DNA of 15,174 nucleotides from a virus. Lineage: Duplodnaviria > Heunggongvirae > Uroviricota > Caudoviricetes. This document shows positions 1,834 to 15,174 of the stretch, one piece after another. The first letter of the stretch is position 1; each line of letters opens with the position of its first letter. The stretch lies in the IMG/VR virus record IMGVR_UViG_3300010368_000011, positions 64,001-79,174 of that record; one strand, 5' to 3'. The notes beneath the pieces are model-generated. The model was not told the DNA's origin. It saw nothing but the letters and a program-made list of their open reading frames with translations, and made no database searches. The translations under genes and the position numbers were made by a program.

Positions 1834-2429
1834 TGCTGAATTCAAAAACCTTGAATTCAATATTACTGGAAGATACATCATTACCACCTAGAACCGGTAT
1901 TGTTATGATGCTGGTTGAATGTCCTGAAGCTATCAAGTTTGTAAAGCTCATTGAGGATGATGAACTGTTTCATGACAATGGAACCCCTATTGAATACTGG
2001 CATCACATCACTATCAGGTATGGCATCAACGAGTTTGATCCAAAAGGGCTACAAGATGCTCTGAAGGATCATGATGTTATTAGTACTGGTCAGCCTGCTA
2101 TTAGTGAAGTTGGATATTTTGAGAATGTTCAACAGGGTGTATGTGACTGTGTGTATTTGAAGATCAATGATGAAGATACTGCTAAGCTTGAAGAACTCAA
2201 AGATGTGGTTGAGAATGTGGTTGATTGTCAGAAGAGTCAGTTTGATGAATACAAAGCCCACATAACTCTTGCCTATGTGCAGAAGGGTATGGGTAAAGAA
2301 TTAGCAGCTCGATTGAATTCACAATTTGATTCTCTTGGTATTGATCAATTCATATTGAATGGTACATCGTTGTTTTATTCTGATGGTGATCGTAAAGAAG
2401 CAACCATTTATCTTGGATCACGTGTGTAG
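1833..2429 (+). CDS. 2H phosphoesterase (LigT/Acb1-like superfamily), 198 aa
   Basis: Two HxT motifs (HITIRYG and FDEYKAHITLAY) 85 aa apart; the second resembles T4 Acb1/gp57B FDDYTPHITLSY. ATG 1833 is coupled to the upstream stop (TAATG). Confidence 0.85.
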   Translation: MLNSKTLNSILLEDTSLPPRTGIVMMLVECPEAIKFVKLIEDDELFHDNGTPIEYWHHITIRYGINEFDPKGLQDALKDHDVISTGQPAISEVGYFENVQQGVCDCVYLKINDEDTAKLEELKDVVENVVDCQKSQFDEYKAHITLAYVQKGMGKELAARLNSQFDSLGIDQFILNGTSLFYSDGDRKEATIYLGSRV

Positions 2430-2439
2430 ATAGTTACAG

Positions 2440-2958
2440 CTAATCCATATTGGATACTGCTTCTTTTAAGAATGCCTTGAACTCATCATCATTTTTGTTA
2501 CCTTTTGCTAAATTGAAGGGAACACATATGAATTGAACATTTCCCTTGATGTATCCCTCTGATGAATCTATTCTATCTAATGATGCTGTTTTGAAATCTG
2601 GTTTATTGTTATATTTTTTGATCATCATTGACAAGCCGGTGTATGCACATTTGCCTTCTTGGTTGTTCCAAATCATATTTAAATATTCTTCATCGATATC
2701 AAATACATGTCGCCTTCCCTTAGCCTTATTCAAATAATATGAAAAATCCCCCTTCTTGTTAAAGGTGTTACCCCATTGTGGTAACGGCGGGGTTCTATTA
2801 GATATCATACTATTATTATGGGTCGTTGCGCATGATAATGTGCAGAAGAAATTAGCATCTTCTCCTCTTATCTTCTTTTGCCGGGTGTGTTCCCTTTTAT
2901 CTTTTAAAAACAACGCGTTGCAATACTTGCATAAAATTTCTATTTTTTCTCTTGACAT
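2440..2958 (-). CDS. HNH-family (beta-beta-alpha-Me) putative homing endonuclease with N-terminal Zn finger
   Basis: CKYC...FCTLSC Zn motif; C-terminal QEGKCAYTG...SLDRIDSSEGYIKGNVQFICVPFNLAK signature typical of phage HNH-like endonucleases. Confidence 0.8.
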   Translation of the reverse strand: MSREKIEILCKYCNALFLKDKREHTRQKKIRGEDANFFCTLSCATTHNNSMISNRTPPLPQWGNTFNKKGDFSYYLNKAKGRRHVFDIDEEYLNMIWNNQEGKCAYTGLSMMIKKYNNKPDFKTASLDRIDSSEGYIKGNVQFICVPFNLAKGNKNDDEFKAFLKEAVSNMD

Positions 2959-2980
2959 TGAATGTTATAATCCTTATAAG
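2952..2980 (+). promoter_or_regulatory. sigma70-type promoter of the tmRNA gene
   Basis: TTGACA (2952-2957) - 17 nt - TATAAG (2975-2980), predicting a start near 2987, just ahead of the acceptor piece. Confidence 0.72.
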
Positions 2981-2986
2981 TATACA

Positions 2987-3264
2987 TGTAATTTATGACT
3001 CAGACTGAAAGACGTACAGGACGCGGCTTCGAAGCCGCCGCCTCCACCATTATACCGCTCGCCTCCACGTTATTTAGGGGCGAAATCATATGGGGGCGAA
3101 ATGGGATCGACTGGCGTTGTATAGGGAAGACGAGATTGCCGGGTGAAGCCCGTTATAGGTTCAATAATAGTAAATGCAGCATCTAACGATAATGCACCTT
3201 CTGAAGTCCGCATCGCGGCTTAATCAGATTGGGGTCTGACAACCCTCGAAACAGAAAACACCCC
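2987..3264 (+). ncRNA. ssrA: circularly permuted (two-piece) tmRNA gene
   Basis: The 3' tRNA-like half (T-arm GCGGC-TTCGAA-GCCGC, CGCCTCC-A-CCA ending at 3049) precedes the 5' half (GGGGGCGAAATGGGATCGAC from 3092). 7-bp acceptor stem with G3:U70 alanine identity and discriminator A. PK1-like pseudoknot CGGG/CCCG + UGAA/UUCA at 3140-3163; tag frame 3176-3223. Outer ends are approximate. Confidence 0.93.
3176..3223 (+). other. tmRNA tag reading frame, (A)AASNDNAPSEVRIAA*
   Basis: Resume-like context ATAGTAAAT-GCA; NDN and a terminal AA* as in alphaproteobacterial tags. The exact resume codon (3176 vs 3179) is inferred. Confidence 0.8.
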
Positions 3265-3286
3265 TTGCCGAAAGGCTTGGGGTGTT
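3257..3286. terminator. intrinsic terminator hairpin between the convergent tmRNA and repeat-nuclease genes
   Basis: AACACCCC-TT-GCC-GAAA-GGC-TT-GGGGTGTT; the minus-strand read is followed by UUUUCUGUUUC, the plus-strand read by a weaker U tract. Confidence 0.72.
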
Positions 3287-6237: not shown

Positions 6238-6290
6238 TTGACATTTGATTCTATACCGTGTATGTTCTCTATAACGAATAGGGAGAGAAC
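6238..6290 (+). promoter_or_regulatory. early promoter cassette 1 with GGGAGAGAAC leader
   Basis: TTGACA 6238 - N17 ending CCGTG - TATGTT 6261; GGGAGAGAAC 6281-6290; ATG 6294. Confidence 0.78.
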
Positions 6291-6293
6291 ATC

Positions 6294-6701
6294 ATGAGTA
6301 CCGGTTTAAAAGAGTTCAACGGGTTTCTTGGTGGGCTGCTGGGCCATAAAACCTATATCATTCATATGTATGAGAATCGTGAAGAGGCGCTGGAAATAAC
6401 TGTTGGTCACTTGCTTGACGAGTTACGCGCCCGTGATCCTGATTATGATAATCCAGTAGCAGTATCGATACAAAATTCAACCGTTCCACATGTTGCTCTT
6501 GATACTTACCGGAATAACCCGGAACTTCATACAGCTTCAGAAGTACGAATCAATCAACCTATGATGATCCAAACGTTGATTGAACAGGCGATGATTGATC
6601 ATGATTGTAATCCTTTGCCTAATATGATGAATGAACGTGATCGCCAACGTGATATCCGTGGTGCCATCGCATGGCTTGAAAGCAAACTGGAACAAGGATA
6701 A
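6294..6701 (+). CDS. hypothetical early protein (135 aa)
   Basis: First gene after promoter cassette 1, strong RBS; no family recognised. Confidence 0.8.
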   Translation: MSTGLKEFNGFLGGLLGHKTYIIHMYENREEALEITVGHLLDELRARDPDYDNPVAVSIQNSTVPHVALDTYRNNPELHTASEVRINQPMMIQTLIEQAMIDHDCNPLPNMMNERDRQRDIRGAIAWLESKLEQG

Positions 6702-7351: not shown

Positions 7352-7516
7352 ATGGCCAGAACACGAATACCGAAAAATATGCGTGTTCCTAAAGTTACTC
7401 GGCCAAAATCTAAATCATGTATTGCGTGTAACGGATCAGGCCGGTATGATCATAATGGAAGTCCACCCTGTGGTGCTTGCGGTGGTACAGGTATAGAGGA
7501 ACAGAATCATGACTAA
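7352..7516 (+). CDS. 54-aa DnaJ-type zinc-finger miniprotein (missing from the ORF track)
   Basis: Translated by hand: MARTRIPKNMRVPKVTRPKSKSCIACNGSGRYDHNGSPPCGACGGTGIEEQNHD*, two CxxCxGxG motifs. Confidence 0.78.
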   Translation: MARTRIPKNMRVPKVTRPKSKSCIACNGSGRYDHNGSPPCGACGGTGIEEQNHD

Positions 7517-7661
7517 GATTAAAAATTCCAAAAAAAGTATGAGCGTAGCTGTACCCGGTAGACCATGTGAAGATTGTGCCGGGTCGGGTATTTCCGAACA
7601 AAACCCCAATCTACCATGTGAAGCATGTGATGGAACTGGGATCGATGGCGGCAAACGATGA
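7509..7661 (+). CDS. 50-aa DnaJ-type zinc-finger miniprotein (missing from the ORF track)
   Basis: Translated by hand: MTKIKNSKKSMSVAVPGRPCEDCAGSGISEQNPNLPCEACDGTGIDGGKR*, two CxxCxGxG motifs; GAGGA SD; overlaps the previous gene by 8 nt. Confidence 0.78.
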   Translation: MTKIKNSKKSMSVAVPGRPCEDCAGSGISEQNPNLPCEACDGTGIDGGKR

Positions 7662-7810
7662 ATGGTCTATTGTTACTAATAGCGGTTTTTTGGTATTCGT
7701 TTGATGATCATCTGGCGAAGCTGCTTAATACCTCATCTATTGGACAGTTGCCCTTTTTGGTATATATCATCATCTGGTTATTTTATATCCTATGGGATGA
7801 TGATGCCTGA
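7658..7810 (+). CDS. 50-aa small membrane protein (missing from the ORF track)
   Basis: ATGA coupling to the previous gene; MNGLLLLIAVFWYSFDDHLAKLLNTSSIGQLPFLVYIIIWLFYILWDDDA*, two hydrophobic segments. Confidence 0.65.
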   Translation: MNGLLLLIAVFWYSFDDHLAKLLNTSSIGQLPFLVYIIIWLFYILWDDDA

Positions 7811-7821: not shown

Positions 7822-8520
7822 ATGAAACTTCAATCATTATTTGAGAATCGCGACAACCCTAATTTCCAACAATGGTTTGGTGATAGTGTCGTTGTGGACA
7901 ACACGGGTAATCCCCTGAAGGTTTATCATGGGACCGGTAATATGGCCGGGATTGATTCCTTTGATCCAAAGTATACCGGTAAAGGTGCAGATCAGCTTGG
8001 TAGTGGTTTTTATTTTACCACTAATGCGTCTGTGGCATCCGGTTATGTTGGACGCCGTTCCGTGCATGAACCCAAACAGGGTGGTGAAGATAGTCCGGGC
8101 GTTCTTCCAGTTTATTTATCAATTCAAAACCCAATTGTATTACAATTTGATGATGCCACAATTGATATCGTGGAATTGACGACATCGCAAGCTTATAAGA
8201 TTATGTTGAAATCTCCGGGGTTACGTGATCTTGATAATTCACGACTGGGTGATTGGTATGATATTTGGAGCGAAGGCATCAGCGATGCACAAATTCGCAA
8301 TGTAGCTCGTCATTATAAAAATATAATGCATCTAGAAAATGAATTCTTCGATGATCATTCCGATTTGTTCCGGCGCACGTTACATGCTGTAACTGGATAT
8401 GATGGCGTCGTTCAAAATTTTGAAGGCGATACTCATTATGTTGCATGGTTCCCAGAACAAATCAAATCTGTATTCAATTCCGGTGGATATGATAGAAACG
8501 ATCATGGTATTATGCGATGA
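7822..8520 (+). CDS. ADP-ribosyltransferase (ART-PolyVal-like, H-Y-type), 232 aa
   Basis: NFQQWFGDSVVVDNTGNPLKVYHGT...GSGFYFTT...VLPVYLSIQNP...GYDGV...YVAWFPEQIKS..N.G pattern; MKLQSLFE N-terminus. Confidence 0.78.
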   Translation: MKLQSLFENRDNPNFQQWFGDSVVVDNTGNPLKVYHGTGNMAGIDSFDPKYTGKGADQLGSGFYFTTNASVASGYVGRRSVHEPKQGGEDSPGVLPVYLSIQNPIVLQFDDATIDIVELTTSQAYKIMLKSPGLRDLDNSRLGDWYDIWSEGISDAQIRNVARHYKNIMHLENEFFDDHSDLFRRTLHAVTGYDGVVQNFEGDTHYVAWFPEQIKSVFNSGGYDRNDHGIMR

Positions 8521-9053
8521 AGTTACAGCATCTATTTGAAACTAGTTTGATTTATACACCAGAGTTTAAGAATTGGTTTGGTGATAGTAAAGTCATCAAA
8601 GTAAGAACGCCTCTAGTTGTTTATCACGGCACACCAGATGATAGAGAATTAAGAGCTACGGGTGAATTTAAATCTCACTCATGGAAATCTTCCGTCTCTC
8701 ACTTCTTTACTGATAGTCGAAGGGTCGCAAAAACATATGCAGACTGGCGGCGCGCTTTTGACCATCAGGGCGCTGAACCATCTGTATTGGCGTGTTATCT
8801 CAAACTGGAAAATCCTTTAATTGTTGATGCTGAATTCAAACGGTGGAGAGAAACAGAGAAACATATTACTACCGCAATGATAGGCGGTCATGACGGAATC
8901 ATTATTAAAAATTCATATGATGAATATCATGCAGGTCTTGATGACAATAACGGCATAGTCTCTACAGTATATTCTGTGTTTGATTCATGTAATATCAAAT
9001 CTGTTAATAATGATGGTTCTTTTGATATAGATGATCCAGATATTTTTAGTTGA
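8517..9053 (+). CDS. second ADP-ribosyltransferase (ART-PolyVal-like) paralog, 178 aa
   Basis: EFKNWFGDSKV...PLVVYHGT...HFFTDS..VAKTY...CYLKLENP...GHDGII...VYSVF...IKSVNNDG; MKLQHLFE N-terminus; ATGA coupling. Confidence 0.75.
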   Translation: MKLQHLFETSLIYTPEFKNWFGDSKVIKVRTPLVVYHGTPDDRELRATGEFKSHSWKSSVSHFFTDSRRVAKTYADWRRAFDHQGAEPSVLACYLKLENPLIVDAEFKRWRETEKHITTAMIGGHDGIIIKNSYDEYHAGLDDNNGIVSTVYSVFDSCNIKSVNNDGSFDIDDPDIFS

Positions 9054-9098
9054 CATATAGTATCTAACCGGTTATAGTATTATCAACACCGGGAGAGA
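9050..9098 (+). promoter_or_regulatory. early promoter cassette 2 with GGGAGAGA leader
   Basis: TTGACA 9050 (contains the upstream TGA stop) - N17 ending CCGGT - TATAGT 9073; GGGAGAGA 9091-9098; ATG 9103. Confidence 0.78.
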
Positions 9099-9102
9099 TA
9101 TT

Positions 9103-9372
9103 ATGGGTCGTTCGATCACACCAAAATATACTGCACGCGTCACCGTCCAAGATGGCTCTTTCACTGTTATGTGGAATGGTCGTGCCACGGATGCTCGTGC
9201 TGAAGACTACCGCAAGATGATGAACAAGTCATATCAAGCCGGTGGTTCGAATGCACACATCCGGTTGAAGAACGGCGGCATCCCACATGCTTCCAAAGTT
9301 GAAGTTCGGTTGAATGTTATCAACGGGTGTGTTGTTGCCAGTGCAACCATGCCTACCTTCGAAGCGGTTTAG
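9103..9372 (+). CDS. hypothetical early protein (89 aa)
   Basis: First gene after cassette 2; MGRSITPKY...GG.NAH pattern; function unknown. Confidence 0.8.
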   Translation: MGRSITPKYTARVTVQDGSFTVMWNGRATDARAEDYRKMMNKSYQAGGSNAHIRLKNGGIPHASKVEVRLNVINGCVVASATMPTFEAV

Positions 9373-11780: not shown

Positions 11781-11832
11781 TTGACACATGCTATTCTTCC
11801 GTTTATAACGAGTATCAGAAACGGGAGAGAAC
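11781..11832 (+). promoter_or_regulatory. early promoter cassette 3 with GGGAGAGAAC leader
   Basis: TTGACA 11781 - N17 ending CCGTT - TATAAC 11804; GGGAGAGAAC 11823-11832; ATG 11836. Confidence 0.78.
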
Positions 11833-11835
11833 AAT

Positions 11836-12033
11836 ATGTCACCTTACACCATTCAATACGAACCAACCGGTCGGTGGGGTTATGTTCGCGCGATTGTTGC
11901 GTGGAAGGGTATTGAAATTCTTCGTGGTGCATATTCTAGTAAGGAAGTGGCGGTGCTTGCTGTTAATGGAGCCATCACTAAGCATTCAGCGCCACGGTTT
12001 GAAGAAGTTCATCCAGAAGTGGTGCCCTGTTGA
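11836..12033 (+). CDS. hypothetical early protein (65 aa), weak AP2-like DNA-binding resemblance
   Basis: First gene of cassette 3; VRAIVAWKGIEILRGAYSSKEVAVLA loosely resembles the AP2 pattern. Confidence 0.72.
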   Translation: MSPYTIQYEPTGRWGYVRAIVAWKGIEILRGAYSSKEVAVLAVNGAITKHSAPRFEEVHPEVVPC

Positions 12034-12034
12034 A

Positions 12035-12229
12035 ATGACTAGAACACAAAAAGCAAGACGGTTGGGAGACGCGATGTCCGCGCTCGAAACTGAATTATTT
12101 GAAGGTCGTAAATTCATTCGGGCTGATAATGCACGATGTTTAGCAGCGTCACTTGAGTGGCTTGGTCCAAAGGATAAAGCTAGACTGTTTGATCTAATAA
12201 CATCCACTGATAATATTGTTGACAAATAG
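12035..12229 (+). CDS. hypothetical early protein (64 aa)
   Basis: ATG 1 nt after the upstream TGA; the longer 11882 start in the track overlaps the previous gene. Confidence 0.68.
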   Translation: MTRTQKARRLGDAMSALETELFEGRKFIRADNARCLAASLEWLGPKDKARLFDLITSTDNIVDK

Positions 12230-12268
12230 TATAAAACGTTTATACATAAGTCAACAACGGGAGAGAAC
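12219..12268 (+). promoter_or_regulatory. early promoter cassette 4 with GGGAGAGAAC leader
   Basis: TTGACA 12219 - N16 ending ACGTT - TATACA 12241; GGGAGAGAAC 12259-12268; ATG 12272. Confidence 0.75.
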
Positions 12269-12271
12269 ACT

Positions 12272-12697
12272 ATGACCATCAACGAATTTGACCAATCCAT
12301 TAAGACCCTCATTGCTGCTGCACATGCTGCCGGTGAAGAGGCTGCTGCTAAGTGCGTTCCAACTCCGATGATTGTTGGCACTCCGAAGACCTTCCTTGGT
12401 TCCGGTATTGATTATTCAAAGCCTGTCGAATATGTGGCCGGTGGTGTTTGCGGCTTTGCTTATATTCAGTTTTCCAAAAAGCAACGCAAGCTGTTCAATT
12501 CGTTCAAACGCTTGAACGTTGGCACTCGTGATGAATATGGTCATGCCGACTCGTATCTCGGTGGCTGGTACATGACGCCTAACGGTGCAGCACAAAGCAC
12601 TCAATCCATGGCGATCAAGGAAGATTATTGCCGGGCGTTTGCTCAAGTCATCCGTGATGCTGGTTACAGTGCTCATATGCGTAGCCGCATCGATTAA
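12272..12697 (+). CDS. conserved hypothetical phage protein (141 aa)
   Basis: GVCGFAYI...QSM.IKEDYCRAFAQVI...GYSA...SRID pattern seen in phage proteins of unknown function. Confidence 0.85.
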   Translation: MTINEFDQSIKTLIAAAHAAGEEAAAKCVPTPMIVGTPKTFLGSGIDYSKPVEYVAGGVCGFAYIQFSKKQRKLFNSFKRLNVGTRDEYGHADSYLGGWYMTPNGAAQSTQSMAIKEDYCRAFAQVIRDAGYSAHMRSRID

Positions 12698-12721
12698 TAC
12701 TAGCCCTGAAAAGGATTTATA

Positions 12722-12910
12722 ATGGCCAAGCAAACACCAATCGTAATCAATACGACGCCAAAAGCTTTCAGAAAAGAAAGCGAAGATCGTGATCAGAGTG
12801 TTATTGATGAAGTATCAGCGAACATGGATGCGTTTGCTGCATTTGGTGTGGACCAGACCACTATTGATAAATGGCAGAAAAAGCTTGATGCGGTTAAACT
12901 GATAAAATAG
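12722..12910 (+). CDS. hypothetical early protein (62 aa)
   Basis: AAAGGA SD; fills the gap before the next promoter. Confidence 0.72.
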   Translation: MAKQTPIVINTTPKAFRKESEDRDQSVIDEVSANMDAFAAFGVDQTTIDKWQKKLDAVKLIK

Positions 12911-12911
12911 T

Positions 12912-12964
12912 TTGACTTTCATAGTAATCCGTCTATATTCAATTATAGAGAAACGGGAGAGAAC
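12912..12964 (+). promoter_or_regulatory. early promoter cassette 5 with GGGAGAGAAC leader
   Basis: TTGACT 12912 - N16 ending CCGTC - TATATT 12934; GGGAGAGAAC 12955-12964; ATG 12968. Confidence 0.75.
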
Positions 12965-12967
12965 AAC

Positions 12968-13258
12968 ATGTTTGCACTTCGCTCAAAGACCACCGGAAAC
13001 TTCGCATCATGGGATGTCAATGCTGTTGAGCATTCGGAGCGGTTCTATGACGATTTCCTCACATCGACCCGCAATGAGTTCACGCTCTCGAATCAAATGA
13101 CAACCACTCAGCTCTGGTTGGCAGATTCGGAAGAACAGGCAAACTTCGTCATGCATAATTCCGGCAACGGTGCATATGATGAACCGTTCAATCCATACTA
13201 TAATCCAGACGGTGACAACACCGAATGGGAAGTTGTTGAAATCGTCATGCCCGCATAA
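12968..13258 (+). CDS. hypothetical early protein (96 aa)
   Basis: First gene of cassette 5. Confidence 0.8.
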   Translation: MFALRSKTTGNFASWDVNAVEHSERFYDDFLTSTRNEFTLSNQMTTTQLWLADSEEQANFVMHNSGNGAYDEPFNPYYNPDGDNTEWEVVEIVMPA

Positions 13259-13265
13259 TCAAGAC

Positions 13266-13316
13266 TTGACTTGCATAACAATCCGTATATAAGTTATATC
13301 AACATTGGGAGAGAAC
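13266..13316 (+). promoter_or_regulatory. early promoter cassette 6 with GGGAGAGAAC leader
   Basis: TTGACT 13266 - N16 ending CCGTA - TATAAG 13288; GGGAGAGAAC 13307-13316; ATG 13320. Confidence 0.75.
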
Positions 13317-13319
13317 ATC

Positions 13320-13631
13320 ATGGGTTATCGCACCGTAGTAATGCTTAGTAATGATCGGGCACACGAGTGGGCCAACGATCCTGAGTTGGGCCAGAAGATC
13401 AACCTTGCGATGAATAGTGTTGGTCACAAAGAACGCAGTGATCTTGGTTATGGTCGTGTTGTTGAATGCGTCCATGCTGATACCGTCACACTGGCGACCC
13501 TCAATTTTTATGAAGGGTTTTCGCCTCTGGCCTATACCGGGTATACGGATAAAAATCCTGAAGTGAACCTTCTGAAGCAAGCTGCCGACTCTCTCGGTTA
13601 TCGTCTTGTCAAGAAAAGTGTCAAGAAGTAA
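13320..13631 (+). CDS. conserved hypothetical phage protein (103 aa)
   Basis: MGYRTVVMLSND...DPELG...VVECVHAD pattern; start moved from 13305 to match the leader motif. Confidence 0.8.
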   Translation: MGYRTVVMLSNDRAHEWANDPELGQKINLAMNSVGHKERSDLGYGRVVECVHADTVTLATLNFYEGFSPLAYTGYTDKNPEVNLLKQAADSLGYRLVKKSVKK

Positions 13632-13659
13632 TCTGGTTTAATCTCTTATTAGGATAACG

Positions 13660-14046
13660 ATGATGGCAAAGTTCGGTGTACCACACAGCAATACTATCGA
13701 CACTACCGAACTTCGTGATCGTCATGATGATCTGGTGGATGCAGAAAAACTGTCGGCAGCTGAAACCAAAGAACTGGCAGCACTAGTTTCCGTGATTGAT
13801 GTGATTAGTGAAATCCGACCACAGGATTGGGATTCCAGCACTCTTATCAAAGCAACGCATTTCCCTGAGTGGTTCAAGGATCGGTTGTTTGAAGAACATT
13901 ACGAATTGTCTCATGTGGTAGATGATTTGGAATTCGTCATCATCGATTGGAATAAGACTATTCAAGCCGCTCTGAATAAAATGTTCACCAAAGTGAATTA
14001 CGGCGGGACTGTTTATTATATGTGTGGGGAAGATTATGATTATTGA
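13660..14046 (+). CDS. acidic protein, possibly ArdA-like antirestriction/DNA mimic (128 aa)
   Basis: AGGA SD; Asp/Glu-rich; DW..STLI...HF.EW...IIDW.KT..A......V.YGGT.YY pattern recalls ArdA-like C-terminal domains. The function call is tentative. Confidence 0.5.
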   Translation: MMAKFGVPHSNTIDTTELRDRHDDLVDAEKLSAAETKELAALVSVIDVISEIRPQDWDSSTLIKATHFPEWFKDRLFEEHYELSHVVDDLEFVIIDWNKTIQAALNKMFTKVNYGGTVYYMCGEDYDY

Positions 14047-14078
14047 ACCATATGAATTCATTCGGATTATGGGGTGTC

Positions 14079-14447
14079 ATGATGTCTGATACATCAATCG
14101 AAGATCAGCAATGTGATCGCCTTCTTGAAATGGTTGCTGAAAATTCCAAAGATGGTATGATCACGGTGCATGCTGAATACATGAACTATCTCATCAAACA
14201 AATTAAGGTGCTGACTCATTCCGGTCACCAAAGTCGTACTCGTGATCAGTTTCTTCCAAGCGTTGCCGAAATCCACGCAATGCATCTTCGTGATGATGTC
14301 GGTCGTATGATCACTGGTGAACATTGGCCTGACCTGACCACAGTGCAACCAGAGTTGACAACGGTGCGTCCGCAGCTTACCACGGTGAAAGATGAATTGA
14401 CTTCGGTGCGTCCTTCGCTTACCACTTTGCGAAATGAACCTAATTAA
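14079..14447 (+). CDS. hypothetical protein with C-terminal heptad repeats (122 aa)
   Basis: GGGGTG SD before ATG 14079; alternative ATG at 14052. Confidence 0.7.
   Translation: MMSDTSIEDQQCDRLLEMVAENSKDGMITVHAEYMNYLIKQIKVLTHSGHQSRTRDQFLPSVAEIHAMHLRDDVGRMITGEHWPDLTTVQPELTTVRPQLTTVKDELTSVRPSLTTLRNEPN
14328..14432 (+). repeat. 5 x 21-nt / 7-aa repeat PxLTTVx
   Basis: PDLTTVQ PELTTVR PQLTTVK DELTSVR PSLTTLR, degenerate at the DNA level. Confidence 0.9.
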
Positions 14448-14466
14448 TTCAAAAGGTTATAAGAAC

Positions 14467-14557
14467 ATACCGAACGCAGTGTTCTCCCCCGAAACGCGTT
14501 CGGTATAAAGACGGACGGTAAGTCGCTCTCTCCCCGGTTTGTAGACTTACCGTCCGT
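14467..14557. ncRNA. twin-hairpin element with loops complementary to the early-gene leader motif (candidate sRNA)
   Basis: Perfect 11-bp stem (14467-14477/14496-14506) with 18-nt loop AGTGTTCTCCCCCGAAAC; perfect 14-bp stem (14511-14524/14544-14557) with 19-nt loop GCTCTCTCCCCGGTTTGTA. Confidence 0.72.
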
Positions 14558-14585
14558 TGCTTTATCAATAATTATTACTATCATG

Positions 14586-14613
14586 TATAAATACTCTAAA
14601 ACAAAGAGTATTT
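14586..14613 (+). promoter_or_regulatory. late promoter TATAAATA overlapping an RBS-sequestering hairpin upstream of terL
   Basis: TATAAATA 14586-14593; 9-bp stem AAATACTCT (14589-14597) / AGAGTATTT (14605-14613) ends 3 nt before ATG 14617. Confidence 0.72.
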
Positions 14614-14616
14614 TAT

Positions 14617-15174
14617 ATGGCACGGTTTATACCCGAAGACGATGGCGGCAAGATTAAGCCTGCCAATTACAAACACGATTACACTCCACGAGAAATGATG
14701 GAGTTGGTGACGTGCGAAGATGACATCCACTATTTCTTAAAAAATTATGCATACATCATTCACCCTACCAAGGGCGCAATGAAATTCAATACATATGATT
14801 TCCAGCGACGATTGCTTGATAACTATATCGCATATGATCGCGTAATATGTATGCTTCCAAGACAAACGGGAAAAACAACGACTTCGTGCGCGTACCTGTT
14901 TTGGAAAGCCTGTTTCTTCTCTAAACAAACCATTCTCATTGCTGCGAACATTGGTTCAACCGCTAAAGAGATTATGGAACGCATTAGGGAAATGTATATG
15001 GAATGCCCGTGGTTCTTGAAACCGGGCTTGGTGGTCAACAATGTCCACGAGATGAAATTCGACAACGGTTCTAGAATTATTGCAGAAACCACGACCAAGA
15101 ACACAGGTCGTGGTAAATCTATTTCAGTTCTATATCTCGATGAGTTTGCTTACGTTAATCCCGGCATCCAAAAA
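14617..15174 (+). CDS. terL: terminase large subunit (T4 gp17-like), 5' 186 codons, truncated by the window end (missing from the ORF track)
   Basis: Translated by hand: MARFIPEDDGGKIK...YDFQ...MLPRQTGKTT (Walker A)...FDNGSRI...TGRGKSISVLYLDEFAYV (Walker B). Confidence 0.95.
   Translation, partial: MARFIPEDDGGKIKPANYKHDYTPREMMELVTCEDDIHYFLKNYAYIIHPTKGAMKFNTYDFQRRLLDNYIAYDRVICMLPRQTGKTTTSCAYLFWKACFFSKQTILIAANIGSTAKEIMERIREMYMECPWFLKPGLVVNNVHEMKFDNGSRIIAETTTKNTGRGKSISVLYLDEFAYVNPGIQK

What the first reader, a model, noticed from the sequence alone, without database searches (positions are those of the whole stretch)
14467..14565. Twin-hairpin RNA whose loops are antisense to the shared early-gene leader: candidate regulon-wide translational off-switch
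Seen: two perfect stems (11 and 14 bp) carry 18- and 19-nt loops, too large for ordinary terminators. Loop 2 contains UCUCUCCC (14527-14534), a perfect 8/8 complement of GGGAGAGA in all six early leaders. Loop 1 contains UGUUCUCCCCC (14480-14490), a 10/11 complement of GGGAGAGAACA in five leaders. Extended to AGUGUUCUCCCCCG (14478-14491) it pairs 13/14 with CGGGAGAGAACACU (12258-12271), right up to the AUG of gene 12272. The element sits at the 3' end of the last early operon, immediately before the terL late promoter. Established: rhizobial AbcR-type sRNAs use two stem-loops with C/U-rich anti-SD loops to block ribosome binding. Inference: a phage 3'-UTR-derived sRNA accumulates and shuts off the first gene of every early cassette (and perhaps host GGGAG-type RBSs), a negative-feedback early-to-late switch to which the leaderless late mRNAs would be immune. 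Alternative: if the minus strand is transcribed, the loops display GGGGAGAGAG and GGGGGAGAAC and act as a sponge for a protein or host sRNA that binds the leader. I found no convincing dedicated promoter on either strand.
Basis: partly seen in the sequence, partly recalled or inferred. Interest (0 to 1): 0.9.

Follow-up and report, generated by a model that had tools for sequence, protein, structure and literature searches.

The report
Phage anti-leader twin-hairpin RNA
Just before its DNA-packaging gene, this uncultured giant phage encodes two RNA hairpins whose open loops are the complement of the short ribosome-binding leader on its early genes. Related phages keep the arrangement, so it is probably an untested RNA switch on early-gene translation.

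Summary
Two perfect stems of 11 and 14 bp (14467-14506 and 14511-14557) carry 18- and 19-nt loops. Both loops contain UCUCCCC, a word found nowhere else on either strand of the 79-kb phage record. That word is the complement of GGGAGAGA, which sits in the roughly 19-nt leaders of at least 10 sigma70-type early promoter cassettes.

Three related jumbo phages (terL 66-77% identical) have the element at the same place. Their stems are completely different but fully paired: 16 of 25 pairs carry compensatory changes. Their loops are again C-rich and complementary to the leader.

G-U pairs in one relative show that the terL-sense strand is the folded one. That argues against the minus-strand 'sponge' idea.

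Each phage's first loop fits the leader of its own operon best (4 of 4 phages). The loop bases flanking the C-rich core extend that pairing beyond chance (combined P about 3e-5).

Best reading: an RNA at the 3' end of the early operon that masks early-gene ribosome-binding sites, in cis, in trans or both. The closest known kinds are the alphaproteobacterial cuckoo/CcsR RNAs and the icaR 3'-UTR; it is not a formal member of the first.

Earlier notes of this scan, not checked here, describe analogous elements in other phages.

The parts
14467..14506 (+). Hairpin H1: 11-bp perfect stem (14467-14477 with 14496-14506) and an 18-nt loop
   Evidence: Found at the same place in G001, L223 and L007 by a model built from the window alone.
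14478..14495 (+). H1 loop, AGUGUUCUCCCCCGAAAC. It is the anti-leader sequence: 13/14 complementary to leader 12258-12271, and it pairs with its own operon's leader at 13304-13319.
14511..14557 (+). Hairpin H2: 14-bp perfect stem (14511-14524 with 14544-14557) and a 19-nt loop. It is extended by an A/U-rich outer helix, AUAAAG with CUUUAU, and probably also serves as the terminator.
14525..14543 (+). H2 loop, GCUCUCUCCCCGGUUUGUA. UCUCUCCC (14527-14534) is 8/8 complementary to GGGAGAGA in every early leader.
14558..14579 (+). U-rich tail after H2 (UGCUUUAUCAAUAAUUAUU): the probable transcript end
   Evidence: U-runs follow the element in G001 and L223, and a canonical terminator follows it in L007.
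13266..13322 (+). Nearest upstream early promoter (TTGACT ... CCGTATATA) with its leader AUUGGGAGAGAACAUC and ATG 13320. This is the 5' end of the operon that ends in the twin hairpin.
13320..14447 (+). Three contiguous ORFs of the operon (13320-13631, 13660-14046, 14043-14447). One matches PHROG 7147 of unknown function and the others match nothing.
12219..12274 (+). Early promoter and leader whose 14 nt before the ATG (12258-12271) are the best predicted target of the H1 loop
12912..12970 (+). Early promoter/leader cassette (GGGAGAGAACAAC then ATG 12968)
11781..11838 (+). Early promoter/leader cassette (GGGAGAGAACAAU then ATG 11836)
9050..9105 (+). Early promoter/leader cassette (ACCGGGAGAGAUAUU then ATG 9103). 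It is a good predicted target of the H2 loop (-19.1 kcal/mol).
6238..6296 (+). Early promoter/leader cassette (GGGAGAGAACAUC then ATG 6294). It is the best predicted target of the H2 loop (-20.2 kcal/mol).
14586..14593 (+). T4-type late promoter TATAAATA for terL. It marks the downstream limit of the element.
   Evidence: Conserved before terL in L007, L223 and L224; G001 has TGTAAATA.
14617..15174 (+). terL, large terminase subunit: the first 186 codons, running off the end of the window

Best explanation
The twin hairpin is the 3'-terminal part of the early transcript or transcripts that end just before the late terL promoter. It is read on the + strand from the sigma70-type early promoters upstream. 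The nearest promoter is about 1.2 kb upstream at 13266, and no recognisable terminator lies between 11.8 and 14.5 kb apart from one weak candidate at 12816. Each hairpin presents a C-rich anti-leader sequence (core UCUCCCC) in a large loop on a strong stem. H2, together with the U-rich tail, probably also terminates transcription. The loops base-pair with the roughly 19-nt 5' leaders of early mRNAs (AACAACGGGAGAGAACAnnAUG). The pairing covers the Shine-Dalgarno sequence and, for H1, every base up to the start codon, so 30S binding is blocked and the duplex may be cut by a double-strand RNase. H1 is tuned to the leader of its own operon, which points to a 5'-3' interaction within one mRNA, as in icaR. 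H2 fits the consensus leader of the whole early set, which points to trans action. Shown here: the structure, the strand, conservation with compensatory stem changes, one copy per genome, and leader-specific complementarity that goes beyond the C-rich core. Inferred: that the RNA is made, that the RNAs pair in vivo, and that the outcome is repression that limits or shuts off early-gene translation.
For: 1. Structure. The element folds with z -5.5 in the window, -7.2 in G001, -7.0 in L223 and -4.1 in L007.
2. Conservation. It lies at the same place, between the last upstream gene and the terL late promoter, in four phage lineages with terL 66-77% identical. A covariance model built from the window alone finds it there as the top hit in each relative: 59.2, 29.3 and 23.8 bits.
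3. Covariation. All 86 stem pairs in the 7 hairpins are standard. Every one of the 10 H1 pair positions varies. In the window, G001 and L223 together, 16 of 25 pairs change on both sides and 98.6% of cells are paired, against 28-37% when partners are slid; 0 of 500 shuffles reach this (the alignment was fitted to the structure).
4. Loops. All 7 large loops are 17-20 nt and carry a C-rich core.
5. Strand. L007 H1 has 4 G-U pairs and its minus strand does not fold (z -1.1). A U-tract or canonical terminator follows the element only on the + strand.
6. Leaders. GGGAGAGA marks at least 10 promoter/leader cassettes in the 79-kb record and 17 sites in the complete genome G001, against 1 for the reversed control. 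The same leader occurs in L007 and L223.
7. Cognate fit. Each of the four H1 loops pairs best with its own operon's leader: -18.9, -19.0, -17.0 and -15.9 kcal/mol, against -10.4 to -16.0 for the others. Chance of 4 out of 4 is (1/4)^4 = 0.004. The matches use leader-specific flanks: CUUAGGG with CCCUAAG in G001, AACAAGGGAG with CUCCCUUGUU in L223, and GGGAGAAAG with CUUUCUCCC in L007.
8. Flank test. With the 5-nt C core held fixed, shuffling the other loop bases gives P = 0.003, 0.018, 0.008 and 0.076 for the four H1 loops, Fisher combined 3e-5.
9. Copy number. The element is single-copy. A model built from three instances finds nothing else in 983 kb, which includes all of G001.
10. Precedents. 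The icaR 3'-UTR motif UCCCCUG pairs with its own SD, blocks ribosomes and creates an RNase III site (PMC3868564). Cuckoo/CcsR RNAs are 2-4 hairpins with anti-SD loops and variable stems, cut out of a 3'-UTR (PMC4615179, PMC8034643).
Against: Only four independent lineages exist, so the cognate test is small. The leader core GGGAGA never changes, so there is no compensatory change in the core itself. H2 loops show no own-leader preference, and two of them are not better than shuffled flanks (P 0.18 and 0.24). In the window, H1 fits leader 12259 better than its own operon's leader. In L007 the second C-loop hairpin is replaced by an ordinary terminator, so two loops are not required. In L223 the stop codon of the upstream ORF lies inside the H1 loop, so translating ribosomes would mask that loop. 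Part of each loop is predicted to form weak inner pairs. The sign of the effect could equally be stabilisation rather than repression.
Confidence: 0.55

Rival explanations
1. The element is only a tandem intrinsic terminator that insulates the late terL promoter from early read-through. The loop sequences have no function of their own.
For: It sits at the boundary between early and late genes. The stems are G+C-rich and followed by U-rich tracts. In L007 the second hairpin is a textbook terminator with a 15-bp stem, a 3-nt loop and UUUGUUUUU.
Against: Loops of 17-20 nt weaken terminators and are kept in all 7 hairpins. The tool's terminator scan does not call them. L007 keeps a large-loop C-rich hairpin directly in front of a complete terminator, so that hairpin is not needed for termination. 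The loop motif occurs nowhere else in the 79-kb record. The loop flanks match each phage's own leader.
Confidence: 0.17
2. The RNA pairs with the leader as proposed, but the outcome is positive. Pairing of the 5' and 3' ends protects the mRNA from 5'-end-dependent or 3'-exonucleolytic decay, or sets a timer on the mRNA, rather than shutting off translation.
For: It rests on the same structural and complementarity evidence as the main explanation. A 5'/3'-UTR interaction that controls RNase access is described for B. subtilis hbs mRNA (PMC5737220, abstract seen).
Against: The duplex covers the SD and runs up to the AUG, which should exclude the ribosome. The known C-rich-loop and SD pairings (icaR, RNAIII, cuckoo, AbcR1) are described as repressive, or are proposed to pair with ribosome-binding sites.
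Confidence: 0.1
3. The C-rich loops are protein-binding sites, for example for Hfq, a CcaF1-like protein, a KH-domain protein, S1 or Rho. The likeness to the antisense of the leader is secondary.
For: The conserved loop core sits on variable stems, which is typical of hairpins recognised by proteins. Cuckoo RNAs are bound by Hfq and CcaF1 (PMC8034643). C-rich, G-poor RNA is what Rho prefers (my own knowledge).
Against: The non-C flanks of the loops differ between phages and follow each phage's own leader, which a common protein site would not require. No DUF1127 gene is present in G000 or in the complete G001 genome.
Confidence: 0.08
4. The element acts at the DNA level, as an operator, a packaging signal or a replication origin. 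In this view a protein that binds GGGAGAGAAC in double-stranded DNA at early promoters also binds two inverted copies in front of terL.
For: In duplex DNA the same word is present at the leaders and in the loops. Several early promoters carry DNA palindromes made of leader and anti-leader words. The element lies next to terL.
Against: Flanking inverted repeats that co-vary completely, and G-U pairs that work on one strand only, point to a single-stranded RNA fold. In G001, which has direct terminal repeats, the element lies 121 kb from the record ends, so it is not a terminal packaging site.
Confidence: 0.05
5. The minus strand is the functional RNA: an SD-like decoy that displays GGGGAGAGAG and GGGGGAGAAC to soak up a protein or a small RNA.
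For: The window's two perfect stems fold about equally well on both strands (-45.6 kcal/mol, z -4.1).
Against: L007 H1 does not form on the minus strand. No minus-strand promoter or U-tract is conserved in G001, L223 or L007. All neighbouring genes are on the + strand.
Confidence: 0.03

Closest known systems
Cuckoo / CcsR (RSs0680, NfeR1, alpha-r14; Rfam ar14 RF02344) small RNAs of Alphaproteobacteria
   Same: Both have 2-4 adjacent hairpins of 24-50 nt with 9-27-nt loops. The stems are highly variable and every loop carries the same C-rich anti-SD word. [quoted passage not shown] The G001 copy aligns hairpin for hairpin with ar14 at 26.1 bits, E 0.0024. The phage carries an alpha-type permuted tmRNA, so an alphaproteobacterial host is plausible.
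   Different: The loop word is YUCUCCCC plus leader-matching flanks, not CCUCCUCCC. All scores are below Rfam's gathering score: the window gives no hit at E up to 10, and whole-record scans of G000 and G001 give none. There is no DUF1127 neighbour. The element is phage-encoded, single-copy, and its predicted targets are the phage's own early leaders rather than host mRNAs.
icaR mRNA 5'-UTR/3'-UTR interaction of Staphylococcus aureus (PMC3868564)
   Same: A C-rich anti-SD word (UCCCCUG) in the 3'-UTR pairs with the SD of the same mRNA, blocks ribosome loading and creates an RNase III substrate. It may act in cis or in trans. Here the H1 loop fits the leader of its own operon best in all four phages.
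   Different: In icaR the motif is not displayed in paired large-loop hairpins. icaR is a single gene rather than a set of 10 or more leaders that share one word. It is a bacterial gene, not a phage gene.
UCCC-loop small RNAs: S. aureus RNAIII and Rsa RNAs, mycobacterial 6C, and AbcR1 of Rhizobiales (PMC4152367, PMC6486639)
   Same: They carry C-rich motifs in hairpin loops or other single-stranded stretches. AbcR1 has two modules, each with a UCCC motif able to pair with SD-like sequences.
   Different: Those are stand-alone genes with their own promoters, and they regulate host regulons. There is no Rfam match to any of them.
c4 antisense RNA of phages P1/P7 (recalled from my own knowledge, not read here)
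   Same: It is a phage RNA transcribed in the same unit as its target, and it masks a ribosome-binding site by base pairing.
   Different: c4 lies upstream of its single target operon (icd-ant), has a different fold and controls immunity. No Rfam match was found.
T4 RegB endoribonuclease acting on early-gene GGAG Shine-Dalgarno sites (PMC3014915)
   Same: The logic is the same: early mRNAs carry a private extended SD (GG*AGRAYARAA in T4, GGGAGAGAACA here) that lets the phage inactivate them as a class.
   Different: RegB is a protein nuclease. No RegB homologue (PF10715) is found in G000 or in the complete relative G001. Here the proposed effector is an RNA.

Membership tests
Cuckoo / CcsR RNAs (Rfam ar14, RF02344) | 2-4 adjacent hairpins of 24-50 nt with hairpin loops of 9-27 nt and variable stems (PMC4615179) | tested here: met
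   There are two adjacent hairpins of 40 and 47 nt with loops of 18 and 19 nt. The stems differ completely between four phages.
Cuckoo / CcsR RNAs (Rfam ar14, RF02344) | Every loop carries the motif CCUCCUCCC | tested here: not met
   The window loops read UUCUCCCCC and CUCUCUCCCC. The nearest forms in relatives are UUCCUCCCC (G001 H1) and CUCCCCUCCC (L223 H1).
Cuckoo / CcsR RNAs (Rfam ar14, RF02344) | Score at or above Rfam's gathering threshold of 58.8 bits | tested here: not met
   The window gives no ar14 hit at E up to 10 in a 191-nt search. The G001 copy scores 26.1 bits, E 0.0024. L223 gives no hit. Whole-record scans of G000 and G001 give none.
Cuckoo / CcsR RNAs (Rfam ar14, RF02344) | Conserved neighbourhood with a DUF1127 (CcaF1) gene | tested here: not met
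   PF06568 is absent from G000 and from the complete G001 genome. The upstream ORFs have no Pfam family.
Cuckoo / CcsR RNAs (Rfam ar14, RF02344) | Processed from a longer transcript by RNase E and bound by Hfq | not testable with these tools
   This needs RNA from infected cells.
icaR-type 5'-UTR/3'-UTR anti-SD interaction | A C-rich anti-SD word in the 3'-UTR, complementary to the SD region of the same mRNA | tested here: met
   The H1 loop pairs with its own operon's leader at -18.9 kcal/mol in the window, and the own leader is the best partner in 4 of 4 phages. That both lie on one transcript is inferred from strand, gene continuity and the absence of a terminator call between 13266 and 14467.
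icaR-type 5'-UTR/3'-UTR anti-SD interaction | The pairing blocks 30S binding and creates an RNase III site | not testable with these tools
   This needs toeprinting and RNase III assays.
Rho-independent (intrinsic) terminator | A G+C-rich stem with a short loop, followed directly by a U-tract | tested here: inconclusive
   The stems are strong. The loops are 18-19 nt, against 3-8 in the scan's rule, so no call is made. The tail after H2 has 5 U in its first 9 nt. Relatives have UAUUUUU or UAUUUUC runs, and L007 has a true terminator in place of H2.
c4 antisense RNA of P1/P7, AbcR and other curated sRNA families | Match to the Rfam covariance model | tested here: not met
   No such hit was found in the whole window at E up to 1, or in the element at E up to 10.

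The most novel reading that the evidence does not exclude
The twin hairpin is one instance of a general, undescribed class of phage 'anti-leader RNAs'. In this reading, T4-like and jumbo phages mark their early mRNAs with a private extended ribosome-binding leader and encode, at the end of an early operon, hairpin loops that carry its complement. The RNA shuts down early translation as a class, which is an RNA counterpart of T4 RegB. It would have one loop tuned to its own mRNA and one to the whole regulon, and a loop-and-leader code that differs between phage groups. Earlier notes of this scan report GCCCUC with GAGGGC and other pairs in unrelated phages.
Probability: 0.4. Interest if true: 0.85.

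Novelty: new variant of a known kind. Interest (0 to 1): 0.72.

Why it matters
How large virulent phages end early-gene expression is understood in detail mainly for T4, where the RegB nuclease and RegA do it. This element suggests an RNA-only solution: a private ribosome-binding leader on early genes, and its complement displayed on hairpins at the end of an early operon.

If that is true, it adds a phage branch to the anti-SD hairpin RNAs known from Alphaproteobacteria and staphylococci. It also gives a compact, testable pair of parts, a 19-nt leader and a 40-nt hairpin, for studying timing in uncultured jumbo phages. It could explain why early genes in these phages share such a long conserved leader. 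The pair could also serve as an orthogonal translational switch in synthetic biology.

Tried and rejected
**Searches that found nothing or added nothing**
- A megablast of 12000-15174 against the GenBank phage collection found no match.
- An exact search for the H2 arm and loop in IMG/VR found none.
- 80 IMG/VR loci with terL at or below 49% identity, and six further contigs at 48-55% (L229-L232, L234, L235), lack the element. There the spacer before terL is 1-57 nt or the neighbouring genes diverge. The element is therefore confined to a small clade.
- Searching for the gene upstream of the element in G001 and L007 found only G001 itself.
- L005, L227 and L228 turned out to be the same phage as the window, 100% identical, so they add no comparative information.
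- L224, L225 and L226 lack usable upstream sequence.
- The record behind L007 is not held, so its other leaders could not be listed.

**Methods that did not work**
- MAFFT could not put the seven hairpins in register. Pairs were counted by hand and on a model-guided alignment.

**Ideas considered and rejected**
- A minus-strand promoter-like match in the window (CCGTCTTTATAC followed by GGGGGAGAACACU) is absent from G001 and was dismissed as chance.
- A RegB-based explanation of the leader was rejected because no RegB homologue is present.
- A packaging-site reading was rejected because the element is far from the G001 termini.
- Literature searches found no phage element of this kind in the library searched. 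This is not proof of absence.

Full report
**Context.** The window is the last 15 kb of a 79,174-bp IMG/VR record of an uncultured jumbo phage, G000. CheckV rates the record 24% complete. A complete relative, G001, has 335,552 bp with direct terminal repeats. The window holds a permuted alpha-type tmRNA, two ART-PolyVal ADP-ribosyltransferases, many ORFs of unknown function, and at its end the start of terL. TATAAATA lies 24 nt before the terL ATG. This is the T4 late-promoter word (my own knowledge).

H1 (14467-14506) has an 11-bp perfect stem and an 18-nt loop. H2 (14511-14557) has a 14-bp perfect stem and a 19-nt loop. The region folds at -45.7 kcal/mol with z = -5.5. GGGAGAGA occurs six times on the + strand of the window, each time just before an ATG, and once on the minus strand inside the H2 loop. 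Chance expectation is 0.17.

In the whole 79-kb record the word occurs 10 times on the + strand. Every copy lies in the same cassette: TTGAC(A/T), a spacer ending in CCGT, a TATA-type -10, about 12 nt, then (A)ACGGGAGAGAACAnnATG. With a start about 7 nt after the -10, the 5' leader is only about 19 nt long. TCTCCCC, shared by both loops, occurs nowhere else on either strand of the record. The H1 loop is 13/14 complementary to 12258-12271. That leader is its best target anywhere in the record on either strand, apart from its own antisense (-22.3 kcal/mol).

**Relatives.** terL-based searches gave three independent relatives that carry the element:
- L007, a metagenome contig with terL 66% identical to the window's.
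- G001, terL 73% identical to the window's.
- L223, a Logan contig with terL 77% identical to G001's.

In each, the spacer between the last upstream gene and the terL late promoter holds large-loop hairpins on the terL strand.
- G001 has 10- and 14-bp stems with loops GUUGUUCCUCCCCUAAGA and GUUCUCUCCCCUUUAAU, followed by UAUUUUU.
- L223 has 10- and 13-bp stems with loops GCUCCCCUCCCUUGUUA and ACAAUCUCCCCGUUGUUCC, followed by UAUUUUC.
- L007 has one 14-bp stem with loop CCCUUUCUCCCCCCUCGUGA, followed by a textbook terminator.

A covariance model made from the window alone finds all three at the expected place as the top hit: 59.2, 29.3 and 23.8 bits. Relatives with terL at or below 55% identity have almost no spacer there and lack the element. 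A model built from three copies finds nothing else in 983 kb, including all of G001. The element is therefore single-copy.

**Structure and strand.** All 86 stem pairs of the seven hairpins are standard pairs, while the arm sequences are largely unrelated between phages. On the model-guided alignment of the window, G001 and L223, 16 of 25 pairs change on both sides. 98.6% of cells are paired, against 28-37% when partners are slid by 1-3 columns, and no shuffle of 500 reaches the observed values. The caveat is that the alignment was fitted to the structure.

L007 H1 contains four G-U pairs. On the minus strand these become C-A mismatches, and that strand does not fold (z -1.1 against -4.1). Taken with the U-tracts or terminator that follow the element on the + strand only, this makes the functional molecule a + strand RNA.

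**Loops against leaders.** The same promoter and leader family is present in L007, L223 and G001. I defined the cognate leader objectively as the nearest upstream early-promoter leader on the same strand. It lies 0.85-1.2 kb away, with contiguous ORFs in between.

Each of the four H1 loops pairs best with its own phage's cognate leader: -18.9, -19.0, -17.0 and -15.9 kcal/mol on the diagonal, against -10.4 to -16.0 off it. If partners were random, 4 best out of 4 would have probability (1/4)^4 = 0.004. The extra pairs come from leader-specific bases that flank the GGGAG core: CUUAGGG with CCCUAAG in G001, AACAAGGGAG with CUCCCUUGUU in L223, and GGGAGAAAG with CUUUCUCCC in L007.

I then held the five-base C core fixed and shuffled only the remaining loop bases. 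This gives P = 0.003, 0.018, 0.008 and 0.076 for the four H1 loops, Fisher combined 3e-5.

H2 loops behave differently. G001 H2 is 10/10 complementary to GGGAGAGAAC in six or more leaders. The window's H2 is 8/8 complementary to all its leaders. H2 loops show no own-leader preference.

**Mechanism proposed.** The early promoters upstream have no convincing terminator between them and the element. They should therefore produce co-terminal transcripts that end at H2 and its U-rich tail. The loops can pair with the short early leaders across the SD and up to the AUG. The 16S anti-SD would form only about 4-5 pairs with this leader (my own estimate), so the loops should out-compete the ribosome thermodynamically.

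H1's own-leader tuning suggests a 5'-3' interaction within one mRNA, as shown for icaR. There a 3'-UTR UCCCCUG pairs with the SD, blocks ribosomes and creates an RNase III site, in cis or trans (PMC3868564). H2's generic fit suggests trans action on the whole early set. Repression is the most likely outcome, but it is inferred, not shown.

A T4 parallel exists. T4 early genes carry an extended SD (GG*AGRAYARAA) that lets the RegB nuclease inactivate them as a class (PMC3014915). No RegB homologue is present in G000 or in complete G001.

**Comparison with known families.** The architecture is that of cuckoo/CcsR RNAs of Alphaproteobacteria. Those have 2-4 adjacent hairpins with variable stems, and every 9-27-nt loop carries the anti-SD word CCUCCUCCC. 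In Rhodobacter they are made from a 3'-UTR and followed by a terminator (PMC4615179, PMC8034643). Earlier notes of this scan gave me this lead, and I checked it.

The G001 copy aligns with Rfam ar14 hairpin for hairpin, but only at 26.1 bits against a threshold of 58.8. The window and L223 give no hit, and whole-record scans give none. The loop word differs, and no DUF1127 gene is present. The element therefore works like a cuckoo RNA but is not a member by the family's own criteria. No match to c4, AbcR or any other sRNA family was found.

**Limits.** Only four lineages carry the element, and the leader core is invariant. Two of the three H2 loops are no better than shuffled flanks. In L223 the upstream stop codon lies inside the H1 loop.

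The literature library I searched describes no phage element of this kind. Earlier notes of this scan report analogous 'anti-leader' hairpins in other uncultured phages with other loop and leader words. Those notes are unverified and were not used as evidence here.

**Verdict.** The feature is real and conserved, and its anatomy is strongly suggestive. I rate it a new variant of a known kind: an anti-SD hairpin RNA or 3'-UTR element. It is encoded by a phage and predicted to target the phage's own early leaders, and its function is untested.

Noticed in passing
window 6262-6292; G001:C1:161576-161620, 227655-227706 and 267984-268031: Many early promoters carry an inverted repeat that brackets the -10 and the transcription start. 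The spacer word ending in CCGT is the complement of the ACGG(GAGAG) of the leader. The repeat grows to 9 bp in the window (ATGTTCTCT with AGAGAACAT) and to 11-15 perfect bp in G001. Leader 9091 co-varies: CCGGT with ACCGG. In read-through RNA from an upstream promoter this would lock the internal SD in a hairpin, while the promoter's own transcript escapes. Alternatively it is an operator.
   Followed up: partly
window 14589-14613; L007:5963-5990; L205 about 2060-2090 (-); L223 about 2628-2650: A short inverted repeat starts inside the terL late-promoter word TATAAATA and ends just before the ATG. Its sequence differs in each phage but stays paired: TACTCT/AGAGTA, ACTTGTT/AACAAGT, ACTCATG/CGTGAGT. 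This may be a read-through lock on the terL start site.
   Followed up: partly
L005:1662-4386 (same phage, continuing beyond the window end); L223:2652-5402: terL is interrupted in this clade. In the window's phage a 352-aa N-terminal ORF overlaps a 562-aa ORF that has a faint GIY-YIG hit. A relative has a 916-aa terL with a LAGLIDADG domain, which looks like an intein. G001 and L007 each have a single uninterrupted ORF.
   Followed up: no
window 2939-3265 (+): A phage-encoded permuted (two-piece) tmRNA: Rfam tmRNA_permuted 101.8 bits and alpha_tmRNA 84.9 bits. It hints at an alphaproteobacterial host.
   Followed up: partly
window 7822-8520 and 8517-9053 (+): Two adjacent stand-alone ART-PolyVal ADP-ribosyltransferase genes (Pfam E 7e-23 and 7e-15).
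   Followed up: no
window 14340-14447 (+): The C-terminus of the 134-aa ORF just before the element is a run of imperfect 7-9-residue repeats (xELTTVRP, QLTTVKD, ELTSVRP, SLTTLRN). The ORF has no family match. This gene is not the one found upstream of the element in G001 and L007.
   Followed up: no
G001:C1:299830-299880 (-): A leader-like word, GGGGAGAGAACG, lies in a local hairpin opposite its complement CGTTCTCTC, away from any recognisable early promoter. It is the second-best predicted target of the G001 H2 loop.
   Followed up: no
window 7352-7810 (+): Three tandem ORFs of 50-54 aa. Two of them have weak CXXCXGXG zinc-finger (DnaJ central domain / anti-TRAP-like) hits.
   Followed up: no
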